Shown here: one piece after another, positions 54,058-58,054 of the stretch
Layout of the letters: each line of letters begins with the position of its first letter
Position numbering within the stretch: the stretch's first letter is position 1
Source: Roseiarcus sp.
GTDB taxonomy: Bacteria; Pseudomonadota; Alphaproteobacteria; Rhizobiales; Beijerinckiaceae
Direction of reading: 5' to 3'
DNA length: 64,000 bases
NCBI GenBank assembly: GCA_035606915.1
Contig: DATNDU010000008.1
Coordinates: 12,857-76,856, forward strand
Notes under the pieces: generated by a model
Told to the model about the DNA's origin: nothing
Seen by the model: the letters and a program-made list of their open reading frames with translations, nothing else
Databases searched by the model: none
Translations under genes and position numbers: made by a program

Positions 54058-55209
54058 ATGACCCATTGGACCGACGCGGCCGAACTTATCGGCGACCGTG
54101 ATTGTGGCGCGCAGCGTATGGGCGCGCAAGGGTTGGCAGCTCGCTACGCGCCGGGCGCGCTCGCTTTCGCGCTGAGCGCCGCGCTGGGGGTCTATCTCGT
54201 CTACCTGCGGCCCTTCCTGCATGCGCCGGCGCCGATGACGTCGCCGGCGGCCGAAGCTTCGCCGTTCGGCAGCCTCGTGGCGCTTGCTCCGCCGTTCGGC
54301 AGCCTCGTGGCGCTTGCGCCGCCGCCGTCTCCGGTCGCCGCCACTCCTGCTGCCGTAAACAAGCCGGCCGTCGCTGAGCCCGCGCCGCAAGCGGTCGCCA
54401 ATCCCTTTGGCGCGCTGGTGATTAAGGGTTTCGGCTCGGCCGCTCGTTTTGACATCGCCGAGGCGCCGGTGCCCCTGCCCCCGGCGCCGCCGGCCGATTT
54501 ACGCCCCATCGAGGAAGCAGCGGCGCCGCTGCCGCCGCGTCGGCCGACGGTGCTTGCGAGCCTCGAAGCGCCCGAGGCTGACGCGCGGTCGCGGCCTTCG
54601 GCGACGCCTGAAGCGCCCAAACCCGCCGCGACTCCCGGGATTTTCGAGAAATTGTTCGGCGACGCGGGCTCGCGCGCGGCCAAGACGCCGGCGCTCGCCT
54701 ATGCCGCGCCGCCCCCGGTAAGCGGCAGCGGCAGTGTTGCGCTCGCCGGGCGTTCAGGCATGAGTGGTTCGAGCGGCGGGTTCGGCAATTTCCTGCGCGG
54801 GCTGTCTTTCGGCTCCAACCCGACTTCGCGCTTCGGCGATCACGTCGCCGTCTACGACATCTCCGCCCGCGCCGTTTACCTGCCCGACGGCACTCGGCTC
54901 GAAGCCCATTCCGGCCTCGGCGTCGCGCGCGACGACCCGTCCAAAGTCAGCGAGCGCATGCGCGGCGCGACGCCGCCGGCAACCTATGCGCTGTCGCCGC
55001 GCGAAGAACTGTTCCATGGCGTCGCCGCGCTGCGGCTGACGCCGATCGGCAGCAATATCTACGGCCGCGCCGGCCTGCTCGCCCATACTTATATGCTGGG
55101 GCCGGACGGCGATTCCAACGGCTGCGTCTCCTTCCGCAACTATGACGCGTTCCTTCGCGCCTTCCGCAACGGGGCGATCACCAAGCTCGTCGTGGTGTCG
55201 CGGCTCTGA
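54058..55209 (+). CDS. Membrane-anchored DUF2778 (Tlde1-like L,D-transpeptidase fold) protein
   Basis: TM near the N-terminus, Pro/Ala-rich linker, C-terminal AVYDISA...LEAHSGLG...GATPP...LAHTYMLGPDGDSNGCVSF. Confidence 0.8.
   Translation: MTHWTDAAELIGDRDCGAQRMGAQGLAARYAPGALAFALSAALGVYLVYLRPFLHAPAPMTSPAAEASPFGSLVALAPPFGSLVALAPPPSPVAATPAAVNKPAVAEPAPQAVANPFGALVIKGFGSAARFDIAEAPVPLPPAPPADLRPIEEAAAPLPPRRPTVLASLEAPEADARSRPSATPEAPKPAATPGIFEKLFGDAGSRAAKTPALAYAAPPPVSGSGSVALAGRSGMSGSSGGFGNFLRGLSFGSNPTSRFGDHVAVYDISARAVYLPDGTRLEAHSGLGVARDDPSKVSERMRGATPPATYALSPREELFHGVAALRLTPIGSNIYGRAGLLAHTYMLGPDGDSNGCVSFRNYDAFLRAFRNGAITKLVVVSRL
54260..54319. repeat. 30-bp in-frame tandem duplication (PFGSLVALA x2)
   Basis: cgccgttcggcagcctcgtggcgcttgc(t/g)c twice. 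Confidence 0.85.
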
Positions 55210-55868
55210 CGGCCGCCATCCGCGACCGCCGCGCCTTCATCCTGCAAAACACCCGCCTGCTGGCGCCGCCGTTGACGCCGGAGCTTTGCCTGCATCTGGC
55301 CGACGAAGCTGTTCCCCTGTGGCTGAAGACGGAGGAGGAGCTTGGCGAAATCGGCCTGCCGCCGCCGTTCTGGGCCTTCGCCTGGGCCGGCGGGCAGGCG
55401 CTCGCCCGCCATATCGGCGACCATCCCGAATGCGTGCGCGCTCGGCGCACGCTCGATTTCGCCAGCGGCTCCGGCCTCGTGGCGATCGCGGCGGCGCGCG
55501 CCGGGACGTTGCGGATCGAGGCCAGCGAGATCGACCCGTTCGCGCTCGCCGCGATCGCGCTCAACGCCGAGGCCAACGGCGTCGAAATTTTTGTGCGGCC
55601 CGACGATCTGGTCGGCCAGGACGAGGGCTGGGAGGTCGTGCTCGCCGGCGACGTCTCCTATGAGCGCGACATGGCCGCCGCCGTCGCCGACTGGCTGGAG
55701 CGGCTGGCGCTTCGCGGCGCCGAGGTGCTTGTCGGCGATCCCGGACGCGCCTATCTGCCGCGCCAACGGCTCGAAAAGATAGCTGAATACAGCGTGCCGG
55801 TGACGCGCGAACTCGAAGACTGCGAGATCAAGCGCACCGGCGTCTACCGCTTCCGCATCGCCTGCTGA
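55206..55868 (+). CDS. Class I SAM-dependent methyltransferase (protein-lysine MTase, ETFBKMT/PrmA-like)
   Basis: PPPFWAFAWAGGQALARH, LDFASGSGL, AGDVSYE, GDPGRAYLP. Start may be CTG 55206 (overlapping the upstream TGA) or TTG 55272. Confidence 0.8.
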   Translation: MTAAIRDRRAFILQNTRLLAPPLTPELCLHLADEAVPLWLKTEEELGEIGLPPPFWAFAWAGGQALARHIGDHPECVRARRTLDFASGSGLVAIAAARAGTLRIEASEIDPFALAAIALNAEANGVEIFVRPDDLVGQDEGWEVVLAGDVSYERDMAAAVADWLERLALRGAEVLVGDPGRAYLPRQRLEKIAEYSVPVTRELEDCEIKRTGVYRFRIAC

Positions 55869-55892
55869 CAGAATCTGACGCTGGCCGCAGCC

Positions 55893-56283
55893 ATGACGCT
55901 CCCGCTGCATAAAGAGAGCGCCATGTCGGACATCACTTTCATCTTGCTCTATGTCGAGGACGTCGCCCGCAGCGCGGCGTTCTACGCGCGCCTGCTCGCC
56001 AAGCCGATTTCGGAATCCTCGGCCAATTTCGCGCTTATCCCCGCCGCGCCGGGGCTGATGCCGGGCTTGGGGCGGCGCAGCGAGGTTGCGCCCGCCGGCA
56101 GCGCCCCCGGCGCCGGCGAGATCGCGGTGAGGCTCGCCGACGAAGCCGCCGTGGAGGCCGAGCCCACGCGCTGGCGCCGCGGGCGTGCGCATCGCCCAGC
56201 CGCCGACGCTCATGGACTTCGGCTTCACCTGCGTCGGCCTCGATCCCGACGGCCATCGCATCCGCGCCCTCGCGCCGGCCTGG
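55893..56283 (+). pseudogene. Frameshifted VOC/glyoxalase-bleomycin-resistance family gene
   Basis: ILLYVEDVARSAAFYARLL in one frame and VRIAQPPTLMDFGFTCVGLDPDGHRIR in another; shift near 56170-56185; probable TGA stop reads TGG. Confidence 0.72.
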
Positions 56284-56497
56284 CGGGGTTTTCGGCGCAA
56301 GTTTATTCGGCGCCCATCGCTCGCGAACCGCATGACGCCGAAATGCTGGGATCGCCGCCGATCCTCGCCCTATGACGGAGCGCGAGGGGTCTTTAGCCTC
56401 GGCACGCCGAGGGATGAGGCGAGCCCGCGCTGGACAGACCCCGGCTTCGCCCTATATTCGCCGCCGCGTGTCTCGCGCGGGGCGATGTCTCGACCAC

Positions 56498-56947
56498 ATG
56501 ACCGACGCCATCATCGACCATTTCAGGGGCCTTGCCGCCGCCTATACCGACGCCATTCGCGCCAGCGACTTCAAGGCCAATATCGTTATGTTCTTTTTGT
56601 CGCTGACGATGGGGCCGGTCGTCTTCAATCACGAGAATTTCCCCGGCTTCCTGACTCTGCCGACGCTCCTCGCGCCGTTCATCCTCATATTCTTCTGCTT
56701 GTTCGTCGCCTTGTTGCCGCGCTACCCGCGTCGCGGGCGGGCGAGCTTTTTCATTTCCGGCAAAGCGACGCCGGCCGATTTCGCCTATCGCGGCCCGAAC
56801 CCCAACGAGGCGCAGGAATTGCAGTTGCGCGTGGCGATTCTGTCCGACATTCTCTACTGGAAGACGCTGTGCCTGCGCGTCGCCTTCTTCATCTGCATCG
56901 CTTGCGTCCTCGTCGCGGCGCCGCTGCTGGCGATTTACGCGCGATGA
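56498..56947 (+). CDS. Pycsar-effector-like (PycTM/DUF5706) membrane protein A
   Basis: IRASDFKAN + TM, TM + LLPRY, AILSDILYWKTLCLRVAF + TM; this D-x-K-A / L-x-P-R / K-before-last-TM layout matches what I recall of PycTM. No HMM was run. Confidence 0.72.
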   Translation: MTDAIIDHFRGLAAAYTDAIRASDFKANIVMFFLSLTMGPVVFNHENFPGFLTLPTLLAPFILIFFCLFVALLPRYPRRGRASFFISGKATPADFAYRGPNPNEAQELQLRVAILSDILYWKTLCLRVAFFICIACVLVAAPLLAIYAR

Positions 56948-57450
56948 TCGAGGAACTCGACGGCCACACGCTGCCCCGACGGCAAGTTTCGGCGCAGGAC
57001 GCGATGGCGCACTATCGCAACATCATTGGCGGCTTCACCGAGACCATCCGGCTCAGCGATTTCAAGGCCAATGTCGCCATCGTGTTCACCGGCATCATGA
57101 TGGGACCGGTGGTGTCGTTCAGGGCCAAGCTGCCGCACTACCTGCCGCTCGATGTCGCGCTGGCGCCGTTCCTCATCGTCTTCCTGTGCCTGCTGATCTG
57201 CCTCTATCCGCGCTATGGGCGCCAGGGGCGGGTGCATTTCGTCATCGCCCGTAACGCTGCGCCACATCTGTTCCCGGGGCCGGAGAGCGAAGACATCGAG
57301 ATCGAAAAGATGCAGACGTTGTGCGCGATCTTGTCGCGCATCCTCTACTGGAAAACGCTGATGCTGCTCATCAGCTTCTACACCTGCATCTTAACCGTCG
57401 CCGCCATCGCGCTGATGGTGGTTTTCGAAAGCTTGCCGCATCTGCAGTGA
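56944..57450 (+). CDS. Pycsar-effector-like (PycTM/DUF5706) membrane protein B, paralogue of A
   Basis: IRLSDFKAN, MGPVV, LAPF, LYPRY, AILSRILYWKTL. ATGA overlap with gene A. Confidence 0.72.
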   Translation: MIEELDGHTLPRRQVSAQDAMAHYRNIIGGFTETIRLSDFKANVAIVFTGIMMGPVVSFRAKLPHYLPLDVALAPFLIVFLCLLICLYPRYGRQGRVHFVIARNAAPHLFPGPESEDIEIEKMQTLCAILSRILYWKTLMLLISFYTCILTVAAIALMVVFESLPHLQ

Positions 57451-57528
57451 ATAGGTGAACCCGCATTAACTTTGCGGAAAGGACGCAGCCCTAGCTTCGC
57501 GCCTCGTTGCAAGCATCATGAGGCGCGT

Positions 57529-57795
57529 ATGTCGGACACGGATGGAATCGCCGGCTCCCGGATTCTCTCGATCATCGAGCGGATCGAGCAGCTCGAAGAG
57601 GAGATCAAGGCGCTCAACGAGGGCAAGAAGGAGGTCTTCGCCGAGGCCAAGGGCGAAGGTTACGACCTCAAGGTTTTGCGGGAAATCCTCAAGATCCGCA
57701 AGCTCGACCGCGACGAGCGCGACGAGCAGGAATCGCTGATCGACCTCTATATGCGCGCGATGAGCGAGGCCGAGCCGCAGAAGCAAGCCGCCTGA
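57529..57795 (+). CDS. gapR: Nucleoid-associated protein GapR (DUF2312/UPF0335)
   Basis: LSIIERIEQLEEEIKAL...KEVFAEAKGEGYDLKVLREILKIRK...EQESLIDLY. Confidence 0.9.
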   Translation: MSDTDGIAGSRILSIIERIEQLEEEIKALNEGKKEVFAEAKGEGYDLKVLREILKIRKLDRDERDEQESLIDLYMRAMSEAEPQKQAA

Positions 57796-57802
57796 GCGGG
57801 CG

Positions 57803-57834
57803 GCCGCGCGGTCCTGACGGGCCGCGCGGCTTTT
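57803..57834 (+). terminator. Rho-independent terminator after gapR
   Basis: gccgcgcggtcc-tgac-gggccgcgcggc followed by tttt. Confidence 0.8.
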
Positions 57835-58054
57835 CCGTCTCTAGCGCGACCGCCGCCGCCGATCCGGTCTTGGAAAGGCGGGTGCAACGGGCGAAGGGTC
57901 GGTTACAGATGACATAAAATGTCACTTAAAGCGCAAAGAAATACATCGAAGGTATCTCCGCTCTGCATTTGTTATACATTTATCATGCTGTTTGTGAAAA
58001 CTTTTCATCAGCACGCCTCTCATCCTCGTGGCGCAAATCCGTCTCCTCGGATGA

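What the first reader, a model, noticed from the sequence alone, without database searches (positions are those of the whole stretch)
56498..57450. Orphan tandem pair of Pycsar-effector-like membrane proteins: a possible two-subunit nucleotide-gated system without its cyclase
Seen: two translationally coupled genes (ATGA overlap at 56944-56947) encode ~150-170 aa paralogues sharing H[FY]R, IRxSDFKAN, MGPVV, LAPF, LxPRY, RxGR and AILSxILYWKTL, each with about 3 hydrophobic segments. The ORF track hides gene B inside a 421-aa read-through frame. Established: PycTM/DUF5706 effectors normally appear as single genes beside a pyrimidine cyclase (Pycsar) or another nucleotide-signalling enzyme and cause membrane impairment on activation. 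Here no cyclase, CD-NTase, HD-domain or retron gene is visible in the 64 kb, and the pair sits among core genes (methyltransferase, gapR, mdh). Inference: a hetero-oligomeric channel that is activated in trans, senses a stress directly, or has been domesticated for a non-defence role.
Basis: partly seen in the sequence, partly recalled or inferred. Interest (0 to 1): 0.82.

Follow-up and report, generated by a model that had tools for sequence, protein, structure and literature searches.

The report
Orphan paired PycTM-like membrane genes
Two overlapping genes encode an anciently duplicated pair of small three-helix membrane proteins, distant relatives of the pore-forming effector of the Pycsar/Pucsar phage-defence systems; here they lack any signal-making enzyme, while sister copies in related soil bacteria sit with cyclic-nucleotide genes, so this is probably a two-subunit channel cut loose from its signalling module.

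Summary
Gene A (56498-56947, 149 aa) and gene B (56944-57450, 168 aa) overlap by ATGA, are 44% identical and each have three hydrophobic helices.

Both are real but distant PycTM relatives. They hit the PADLOC PycTM model, but fall below the Pfam PF18967.5 cut-off.

The family is small and was found in one genus of 53 sampled (Roseiarcus-like Hyphomicrobiales). It always occurs as a same-strand A-type plus B-type pair. The duplication predates all paralogous loci, and both genes are under purifying selection (dN/dS 0.10-0.30). The eight loci of the window type share an invariant sigma-70-like promoter.

The window type has no cyclase, no HD gene and no cNMP-binding neighbour. The HD gene is absent from all nine genomes of this type. 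Sister types do carry such genes:
- A-HD-B, often beside a divergent cyclase-TPR gene.
- A-B-HD flanked by two other cyclases.
- A stand-alone cNMP-binding protein upstream.

Best reading: a hetero-oligomeric PycTM-type membrane channel that has lost its private cyclic-nucleotide module. It may be gated in trans or by another cue. It is a new variant of a known kind, of moderate interest, and untested biochemically.

The parts
56431..56458 (+). Sigma-70-like promoter TGGACA-16 nt-TATATT, about 40 nt upstream of the gene A start
   Evidence: It matches 10 of 12 consensus positions. It is the only promoter-like site in 55800-57900, where shuffles give a mean of 0.3. The block GCTGGACAG...TATATT is invariant in all eight class I loci while the flanking intergenic DNA varies. 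No transcript data were available.
56498..56947 (+). Gene A: 149-aa three-helix membrane protein, the upstream or 'A-type' paralogue
   Evidence: ORF and translation. PADLOC PycTM PDLC02364 E 2e-4, residues 17-143 against model positions 17-151 of 160. Hydrophobic segments at about 25-43, 47-77 and 118-149. It groups with all other upstream copies in the tree. dN/dS is 0.10-0.20 against orthologues. The start at 56498 is supported by loss of frame conservation upstream.
56944..56947 (+). ATGA overlap: the stop of A and the start of B share four bases, which suggests translational coupling
   Evidence: Read directly from the sequence. The same 4-nt overlap is annotated in the orthologous loci L016-L021. 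The N-terminus MIEELDG of B is conserved in orthologues.
56944..57450 (+). Gene B: 168-aa three-helix membrane protein, the downstream or 'B-type' paralogue
   Evidence: ORF and translation. PADLOC PycTM PDLC02364 E 4.9e-6, residues 23-161 against model positions 8-152 of 160. AlphaFold2 model pLDDT 81 with helices 17-58, 69-87, 92-98 and 116-167. It groups with all other downstream copies. dN/dS is 0.10-0.30.

Best explanation
Genes A and B encode the two subunit types of a lineage-specific hetero-oligomeric three-helix inner-membrane complex. The complex is homologous to the PycTM/PucTM ('pJV1-SpdB3-like 3TM') effectors.

By analogy with the homo-hexameric EcPucTM cylinder, the likely assembly is a mixed ring, for example A3B3, with TM2 lining a pore. 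The residues conserved in both paralogues sit where the three helices meet the cytoplasmic face of the membrane: I-R-x-x-D-x-K-A-N before TM1, P-R after TM2 and L-x-W-K-T before TM3. This cluster would form the gating or ligand site.

In sister loci the pair is part of a cyclic-nucleotide module with an HD-superfamily phosphohydrolase, class III cyclases or a cNMP-binding protein. The window's version has lost, or never had, those partners. It is kept as a two-gene operon with its own conserved promoter.

It would then open in response to a cyclic nucleotide made in trans by one of the genome's eight class III cyclases, or to another cytoplasmic cue, and change membrane permeability.

Shown here: homology, obligatory pairing, ancient A/B split, purifying selection, orphan status, and cNMP-gene neighbours in sister types.

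Inferred: hetero-oligomer, pore, ligand, and physiological versus defensive role.
For: Homology to PycTM:
- PADLOC PycTM hits A and B over the full length.
- 27 of 31 family members hit PDLC02364, best E 1.1e-9, and no other of 5027 models.
- More distant family members bridge to PycTM at 5e-13 to 7e-10 and to Pfam PF18967 at 6e-5. They share the IRxxDxKxN / PR / K motifs.

Two subunits:
- The family appears as a same-strand pair in all 46 species loci with enough DNA.
- Upstream and downstream copies need only 2 label changes on the tree, against 27.8 in shuffles. The two halves have parallel topologies.
- Both paralogues keep the same 20 conserved positions, so neither is a degenerate copy.
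- dN/dS is 0.10-0.30 for both.
- The ATGA coupling is conserved and the promoter block is invariant.

Pore precedent:
- EcPucTM is a six-fold cylinder with TM2 lining a pore of about 15 A (bioRxiv 10.64898/2026.08.12.744502).
- Induction of SpdB3 expression was highly toxic to E. coli (PMC4447253). That SpdB3 belongs to the same superfamily rests on the preprint's family name and was not tested here.

Link to cyclic nucleotides:
- Class II loci are A-HD-B in 9 of 9 cases. A divergent PF00211+TPR cyclase is adjacent in 5 of 8 genome-contig loci with enough flank, and in L068 and L070-L072.
- L113 has the order A-B-HD, flanked by two cyclases of a different architecture.
- 9 of 13 class IIIa loci have a PF00027 cNMP-binding protein 1-6.5 kb upstream.
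- The HD family is also translationally coupled to a cyclase beside CNBD transporters in L112, without any PycTM gene.

Orphan status:
- The HD gene is absent from all 9 class I genomes and present in 3 of 3 class II controls.
- The window genome has no cyclase-TPR gene.
- It does have 8 other PF00211 genes. One of them (C159) is 57-59% identical to a pair-linked cyclase of L113.
Against: - No biochemical or structural evidence exists for a heteromer. Linked genes would show parallel trees whether or not the proteins touch.
- The local Pfam-A model PF18967.5 does not match the pair at E<=1. The family is therefore outside the curated PycTM boundary.
- Foldseek finds nothing significant in PDB or BFVD.
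- Each cNMP-gene association lies within closely related genomes. Together they amount to about three or four independent observations.
- The cyclase-TPR family has 5-36 copies in the relatives searched, which weakens the meaning of adjacency.
- Most paralogous loci have no nucleotide-signalling neighbour at all. This covers class I and the class IIIb-like loci such as the hdaA-pgsA / purM-purN site.
- A constitutive-looking promoter on a pore-forming effector is odd unless the complex is tightly closed at rest.
- The genome is a 94%-complete MAG, so absence claims are not absolute.
Confidence: 0.5

Rival explanations
1. The pair is a housekeeping two-subunit membrane complex with no link to nucleotide signalling. 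It could be a lineage-specific ion or small-solute channel, or a membrane-homeostasis factor. It would have been recruited long ago from the PycTM fold and would now work without any second messenger.
For: - The genus carries 1-6 pairs per genome in ordinary chromosomal sites: glyoxalase/gapR/mdh, hdaA-pgsA/purM-purN, and the cfa-DUF1365-amine oxidase cluster.
- Synteny is conserved across eight species.
- Both genes are under purifying selection.
- The promoter is constitutive-looking and invariant.
- Most loci have no cyclase, HD or CNBD gene.
- There are no mobile-element or defence genes within 10 kb.
Against: - HD, cyclase and CNBD neighbours recur in three differently organised sister loci.
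- The cytoplasmic-face motifs shared with PycTM-like bridge proteins are retained.
- The family is restricted to one genus of 53 sampled, which is unusual for a housekeeping function.
Confidence: 0.25
2. The pair is an orphan abortive-infection effector. It would be a PycTM-type pore freed from cyclase signalling that senses phage infection directly, for example through a phage protein or membrane perturbation. Paralogue expansion would then reflect an arms race.
For: - Its homologues are PycTM/PucTM defence effectors.
- The family is multi-copy, genus-restricted and variable in copy number, with 2-12 matches per genome.
- Induction of SpdB3 expression was highly toxic to E. coli.
Against: - dN/dS of 0.10-0.30 gives no sign of diversifying selection.
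- The chromosomal positions are stable and syntenic, not islands.
- There are no neighbouring defence genes.
- Each paralogous locus type is inherited vertically, with parallel A and B trees.
Confidence: 0.12
3. The pair is a toxin-antitoxin-like arrangement of paralogues. One paralogue would be the pore-former. The other would be a dominant-negative regulator that keeps it closed.
For: The pairing is obligatory and the genes are translationally coupled. Induction of SpdB3, the protein after which the preprint names the 3TM family, was highly toxic to E. coli.
Against: Both paralogues keep the same conserved positions and similar overall conservation, 0.67 against 0.67 mean column frequency. 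No position is fixed differently between the two types. This argues for two equivalent structural subunits, not an active and a degenerate one.
Confidence: 0.06

Closest known systems
PycTM / PucTM, the transmembrane effectors of Pycsar and Pucsar (Pfam PF18967, PADLOC PycTM; called the 'pJV1-SpdB3 family 3TM' in bioRxiv 10.64898/2026.08.12.744502)
   Same: The proteins are about 150-170 aa with three TM helices and a helical cytoplasmic part. They match the PADLOC PycTM model over its full length. The motifs at the cytoplasmic membrane face are shared with bridge sequences that score better to PycTM. Sister loci lie next to class III cyclases.
   Different: - Here there are always two diverged paralogues (44% identity) instead of one gene.
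- There is no adjacent cyclase in this locus type.
- The proteins fall below the Pfam PF18967.5 gathering score.
- The site is chromosomal, syntenic and vertically inherited, not a defence island.
- The family is confined to one genus of 53 sampled.
- EcPucTM is a homo-hexamer, whereas a heteromer is inferred here.
HD-PycTM fusion proteins linked to GAF-cyclases in Bacteroidota
   Same: The combination of an HD-superfamily hydrolase, a PycTM-type membrane module and a class III cyclase occurs in core-genome settings. The class II (A-HD-B plus cyclase-TPR) and L113 (A-B-HD plus two cyclases) relatives of the window pair show the same three components.
   Different: In this family the HD protein is a separate gene of the COG4339-like type. 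It has no Pfam HD hit. It is missing altogether from the window's locus type and genome. The membrane part is split into two paralogous genes.
SpdB3 spread protein of Streptomyces conjugative plasmids (pJV1/pSVH1)
   Same: The preprint names the 3TM superfamily after it. It is a small integral membrane protein that works within a multi-protein membrane complex. Induction of its expression was highly toxic to E. coli (PMC4447253).
   Different: SpdB3 is plasmid-borne and serves intramycelial DNA spreading alongside TraB and SpdB2. No sequence comparison with SpdB3 was made here, and there are no conjugation genes near the window pair.

Membership tests
PycTM protein family (Pfam PF18967 / PADLOC PycTM) | Significant match to a PycTM profile over most of its length | tested here: met
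   PADLOC PDLC02364 gives B 4.9e-6 (model positions 8-152 of 160) and A 2e-4 (17-151 of 160). 27 of 31 family members match it, best E 1.1e-9, and no other PADLOC family appears. Bridge relatives reach 5e-13.
PycTM protein family (Pfam PF18967 / PADLOC PycTM) | Score above Pfam's curated gathering threshold (27.2 bits for PF18967.5) | tested here: not met
   There is no PF18967.5 hit at E<=1 for A or B. A genome-wide six-frame search does not hit the pair. Bridge relatives reach at most 23.8 bits. A precomputed annotation with the newer PF18967.6 does list both genes, so the result depends on the model version.
PycTM protein family (Pfam PF18967 / PADLOC PycTM) | Three transmembrane helices with a helical cytoplasmic region | tested here: met
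   Hydropathy gives three segments in each protein. The AlphaFold2 model of B, pLDDT 81, has long helices 17-58, 69-87 and 116-167.
PycTM protein family (Pfam PF18967 / PADLOC PycTM) | Homo-hexameric cylinder with TM2 lining the pore (EcPucTM cryo-EM) | not testable with these tools
   No multimer prediction is available. No PycTM/PucTM structure is in the PDB copy.
Pycsar / Pucsar defence system (cyclase plus effector) | Effector gene adjacent to a dedicated class III cyclase (PycC/PucC) | tested here: not met
   There is no PF00211 gene on contig C30. Eight lie on other contigs. None is a short stand-alone PycC type. PADLOC PycC models match them only over the generic cyclase domain. All eight class I loci lack an adjacent cyclase.
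Pycsar / Pucsar defence system (cyclase plus effector) | Single effector gene per system | tested here: not met
   There are two paralogous effector-like genes in every locus. The A/B split is ancient.
Pycsar / Pucsar defence system (cyclase plus effector) | Patchy, island-like or mobile genomic context typical of defence systems | tested here: not met
   The flanks are yajC-secDF, a Tlde1-domain gene, a methyltransferase and a glyoxalase upstream, and gapR, mdh and sucCDAB downstream. They are syntenic in eight species. No defence or mobile-element genes were seen within 10 kb.
Pycsar / Pucsar defence system (cyclase plus effector) | cCMP/cUMP/cGMP-dependent activation and anti-phage activity | not testable with these tools
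   This needs binding assays and phage challenge.

The most novel reading that the evidence does not exclude
The Roseiarcus-like lineage holds an undescribed, physiological (non-defence) cyclic-nucleotide circuit. Its output would be a heteromeric A/B PycTM-type membrane channel.

The full form is cyclase | A - HD phosphodiesterase - B, or A-B-HD with two cyclases, or CNBD protein plus A-B. The window shows the minimal form. There the channel has been uncoupled from any private cyclase and HD enzyme and is wired to the cell's general cNMP pool or to a different cue.

This would be the first hetero-oligomeric member of the PycTM/PucTM superfamily. It would also be an example of a defence-type pore reused for normal physiology.
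Probability: 0.3. Interest if true: 0.75.

Novelty: new variant of a known kind. Interest (0 to 1): 0.55.

Why it matters
PycTM/PucTM effectors are known as single-gene, homo-oligomeric pores. They are switched on by a neighbouring cyclase during phage infection.

This family shows the same fold in a different setting. It is an obligatory, anciently duplicated gene pair. It is inherited vertically in ordinary chromosomal sites. It occurs with a graded series of partners, from a full cyclase + HD + pair module down to the bare pair seen here.

If the heteromer and the cNMP link hold, the series offers three things:
- A natural set of constructs for asking how these pores are gated.
- A case of a defence-type effector used outside defence.
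- A candidate function, cNMP phosphodiesterase, for a COG4339-like HD family that has no Pfam model hit.

If they do not hold, the pair is simply a lineage-specific membrane complex of unknown role.

Tried and rejected
Searches that gave nothing useful:
- Pfam-A hmmscan of A and B gave no PF18967 hit. NCBIfam gave nothing.
- PF18967.5 against the whole genome did not hit the pair.
- The PDB sequence/profile search gave nothing.
- Foldseek of the B model against PDB and BFVD gave nothing below E 0.001, only generic long-helix proteins.
- The middle gene of class II loci (P0123) had no Pfam, NCBIfam, PADLOC or PDB-sequence hit. Its AlphaFold2 model was poor (pLDDT 67), and Foldseek gave only weak, scattered hits, with the HD-domain protein PhnZ far down the list. 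The HD assignment therefore rests on the invariant H..H / HD / H / D pattern and on the names JGI and UniRef give its homologues.
- PADLOC PycC models match all eight cyclases of the genome through the generic catalytic domain. They cannot tell a Pycsar cyclase from a housekeeping one.

Readings rejected:
- The 191-aa version of gene A, because the upstream frame is not conserved.
- The 421-aa read-through ORF.
- Coupling of A to the glyoxalase gene in this window. An intergenic region with its own promoter lies between them.
- The idea that the extra DNA of roughly 130-150 bp at about 56283-56430 is a repeat element. It is a single copy in the genome.
- The idea that GapR adjacency is functional. 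GapR-like genes in other genus members are not next to pairs.

Full report
**What is in the window**

Gene A runs from the ATG at 56498 to 56947 (149 aa). Gene B runs from the ATG at 56944 to 57450 (168 aa). They share the four bases ATGA. Each has three hydrophobic segments. The AlphaFold2 model of B (31-sequence alignment, pLDDT 81) has three long helices: 17-58, 69-87 and 116-167.

The 421-aa frame that hides gene B is an artefact. Upstream of B it runs through non-coding DNA and the displaced C-terminus of a glyoxalase gene. The longer 191-aa form of A is also rejected, because the frame upstream of 56498 is not kept in the orthologous locus L020.

A sigma-70-like site, TGGACA-16-TATATT, lies at 56431-56458 and is the only such match in the 2.1 kb scanned. 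The same block is invariant in all eight loci of this synteny type, while the surrounding intergenic DNA varies. The pair therefore looks like its own two-gene transcription unit.

**Relation to PycTM**

- The PADLOC PycTM model PDLC02364 matches B (E 4.9e-6) and A (E 2e-4) over nearly its full length.
- Of 31 diverse family members, 27 hit that model, best E 1.1e-9. No other of the 5027 PADLOC models appears.
- The local Pfam-A model PF18967.5 gives no match at E<=1. The protein database's precomputed annotation with PF18967.6 lists every member. The result depends on the model version.
- A profile of the family, searched against 1.84 billion representative proteins, finds only 157 clusters at E<=0.001, many of them fragments.
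- The most distant full-length hits (P0167, P0175, P0193) score better to PADLOC PycTM (5e-13 to 7e-10). They reach sub-threshold Pfam PF18967 scores of up to 23.8 bits, against a cut-off of 27.2.
- These bridge proteins share the motifs IRxxDxKxN, PR and a conserved K with the pair.

I read this as real but distant homology. The family is a small, divergent branch outside the curated Pfam boundary.

Structure searches in PDB and BFVD found nothing significant. No PycTM structure is in the PDB copy. A 2026 preprint describes PycTM/PucTM as 'pJV1-SpdB3 family 3TM' proteins. It reports EcPucTM as a six-fold cylinder with TM2 lining a pore of about 15 A.

**The pair is obligatory and old**

The organism is a Roseiarcus-like member of the Hyphomicrobiales, known from soil and peat MAGs. 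In 46 species-level loci from genome contigs, the family always appears as two same-strand genes. They are either adjacent or separated by one gene.

In a maximum-likelihood tree of 82 copies, upstream and downstream copies separate almost perfectly. The tree needs 2 label changes, against 27.8 in shuffles, and the two halves have parallel topologies. The A/B duplication therefore predates the spread of the pair to several chromosomal sites, and the two genes have been inherited together since.

Both paralogues keep the same 20 highly conserved positions. No position is fixed differently between the two types, so neither is a degenerate copy. Against seven orthologous loci, dN/dS is 0.10-0.20 for A and 0.10-0.30 for B.

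Within the GTDB family, the pair was found in one genus of 53 sampled. Within that genus, 21 of the 24 other genomes searched have 2-12 copies. The window's genome has only this one pair.

**Locus types**

| Type | Loci | Layout |
|---|---|---|
| Class I (the window) | window, L020, L022-L029 | Tlde1-domain gene, PrmA-like methyltransferase, glyoxalase, A, B, GapR-like gene, mdh, sucC |
| Class II | L030-L038, L068-L072 | A, a 223-226-aa gene, B |
| Single metagenome locus | L113 | A-type, B-type, then the HD gene, flanked by two cyclases |
| Class IIIa | L054-L067 | adjacent pair beside a cfa-DUF1365-amine oxidase cluster |
| Class IIIb | L041, L044, L045, L051 | hdaA, pgsA, A, B, DUF3307, purM, purN, with no signalling neighbour |

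Class I was found in 3 of 41 genus genomes sampled.

Class II details:
- The middle gene has invariant H39, H43, H76-D77, H122 and D145/D147.
- JGI and UniRef name its homologues 'metal-dependent HD superfamily phosphohydrolase'.
- No Pfam, NCBIfam or fold match confirmed this.
- A divergently transcribed PF00211 cyclase with TPR repeats (586 aa) is adjacent in 5 of the 8 genome-contig loci with enough flank. It is also adjacent in L068 and L070-L072.

L113 details: the flanking cyclases have a different architecture, an N-terminal domain plus the cyclase domain. One of them is split.

Class IIIa details: a stand-alone cNMP-binding protein (PF00027, E 1.5e-22) lies 1-6.5 kb upstream in 9 of 13 loci.

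Separately, a homologue of the HD gene is translationally coupled to a cyclase. It sits beside two SulP-STAS-CNBD transporters in L112, with no PycTM gene present.

In both halves of the tree, class I groups with class II (support 97 for the A copies, 93 for the B copies). The most economical reading is that the window's type descends from an HD-bearing form and lost the HD gene. The polytomy does not prove this.

**Orphan status**

- The HD gene is absent from the window genome and from all nine class I genomes. It is present once in each of three class II controls.
- The cyclase-TPR family has 5-36 copies in the other genomes searched. It has no member in the window genome.
- The window genome does have eight other class III cyclase genes, none on the window's contig.
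- One of them (contig C159) is 57-59% identical over its full length to the split cyclase next to the pair in L113.
- PADLOC PycC models match all eight through the generic domain only, so they do not discriminate.
- The genome is a 94%-complete MAG.

**Interpretation**

Shown:
- Distant PycTM homology.
- Three-helix topology.
- Obligatory pairing and an ancient A/B split.
- Purifying selection.
- A conserved promoter.
- Absence of cyclase, HD and CNBD partners in this locus type.
- Presence of such partners in three differently organised sister types.

Inferred:
- A and B form a mixed ring or pore. The analogy is the EcPucTM hexamer.
- The conserved charged cluster at the cytoplasmic ends of the three helices is the gating or ligand site.
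- The ancestral module was a cyclic-nucleotide circuit, with the HD protein as a likely phosphodiesterase.
- The window's pair is a reduced form, gated in trans or by another cue.

I put about 0.5 on the hetero-oligomeric PycTM-type channel reading. I put less on cNMP being the ligand in this genome.

Rivals:

| Rival | Confidence |
|---|---|
| Messenger-independent housekeeping membrane complex | 0.25 |
| Orphan abortive-infection effector | 0.12 |
| Toxin/regulator pair of paralogues | 0.06 |

A further reading, a decaying remnant, is excluded by dN/dS and conservation.

**Novelty**

PycTM appears in only 11 papers of the library. None of the passages I read in three of them describes a paired or heteromeric form. 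The terms DUF5706 and PF18967 return no paper.

My analysis agrees with it. It adds the A/B phylogeny, the promoter, and the HD, cyclase and CNBD-bearing sister types.

This is a new variant of a known kind, of moderate interest.

Noticed in passing
window 55923-56285 (+): The glyoxalase/VOC-family gene just upstream of the pair is disrupted relative to the intact 121-aa orthologue in L020. It has a 2-bp deletion near 56175, and the stop codon is replaced by TGG. Its C-terminus (IAQPPTLMDFGFTCVGLDPDGHRIRALAPA) therefore reads in another frame and runs into the 421-aa read-through ORF. The same 160-aa truncated call appears in three independent metagenome assemblies (L016, L017, L019), so it is probably a real pseudogene and not an assembly error.
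   Followed up: partly
window about 56283-56430: Roughly 130-150 bp lie between the glyoxalase remnant and the conserved promoter block and have no counterpart in L020. The stretch is a single copy in the genome (blastn), so it is not a repeat element. Its origin is unknown.
   Followed up: partly
window 57529-57795 (+); also G000 contig C83:21441-21686: The GapR-like (PF10073) gene next to the pair is a second paralogue. It is found at 66% identity or more in only a minority of genus genomes. The copy shared by nearly all genus members (45-55% identical to it) lies on contig C83. Two GapR-type nucleoid proteins in one genome may deserve a look.
   Followed up: partly
L068:9202-9882, L113:5001-5696, L112:5001-5666 (related loci, not the window): A family of about 220 aa, named 'HD superfamily phosphohydrolase' by its sources (COG4339-like), has no Pfam or NCBIfam model hit. 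It is repeatedly linked to class III cyclases, CNBD transporters and PycTM-like pairs. It is a candidate undescribed cNMP phosphodiesterase.
   Followed up: partly
genomes G256-G262 versus G000: The cyclase-TPR architecture (PF00211 plus TolB-like/TPR, about 600 aa) has 5-36 copies in the other genomes searched. It has no member at E<=1e-20 in the window's own 94%-complete genome.
   Followed up: no
window 54058-55209 (+): The Tlde1-domain (L,D-transpeptidase-like) protein has a long Pro/Ala-rich N-terminal region that contains a perfect tandem duplication, PFGSLVALAP PFGSLVALAP.
   Followed up: no
L020:14301-14949 (relative), compare the window between sucC (ends 60350) and sucD: In the 90%-identical relative, a small ORF plus a PIN-domain gene (a toxin-antitoxin-like pair) is inserted between sucC and sucD. 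In the near-identical assembly L016, the sucC-sucD gap holds two small unannotated ORFs (115 and 45 aa); the window itself was not read there.
   Followed up: no
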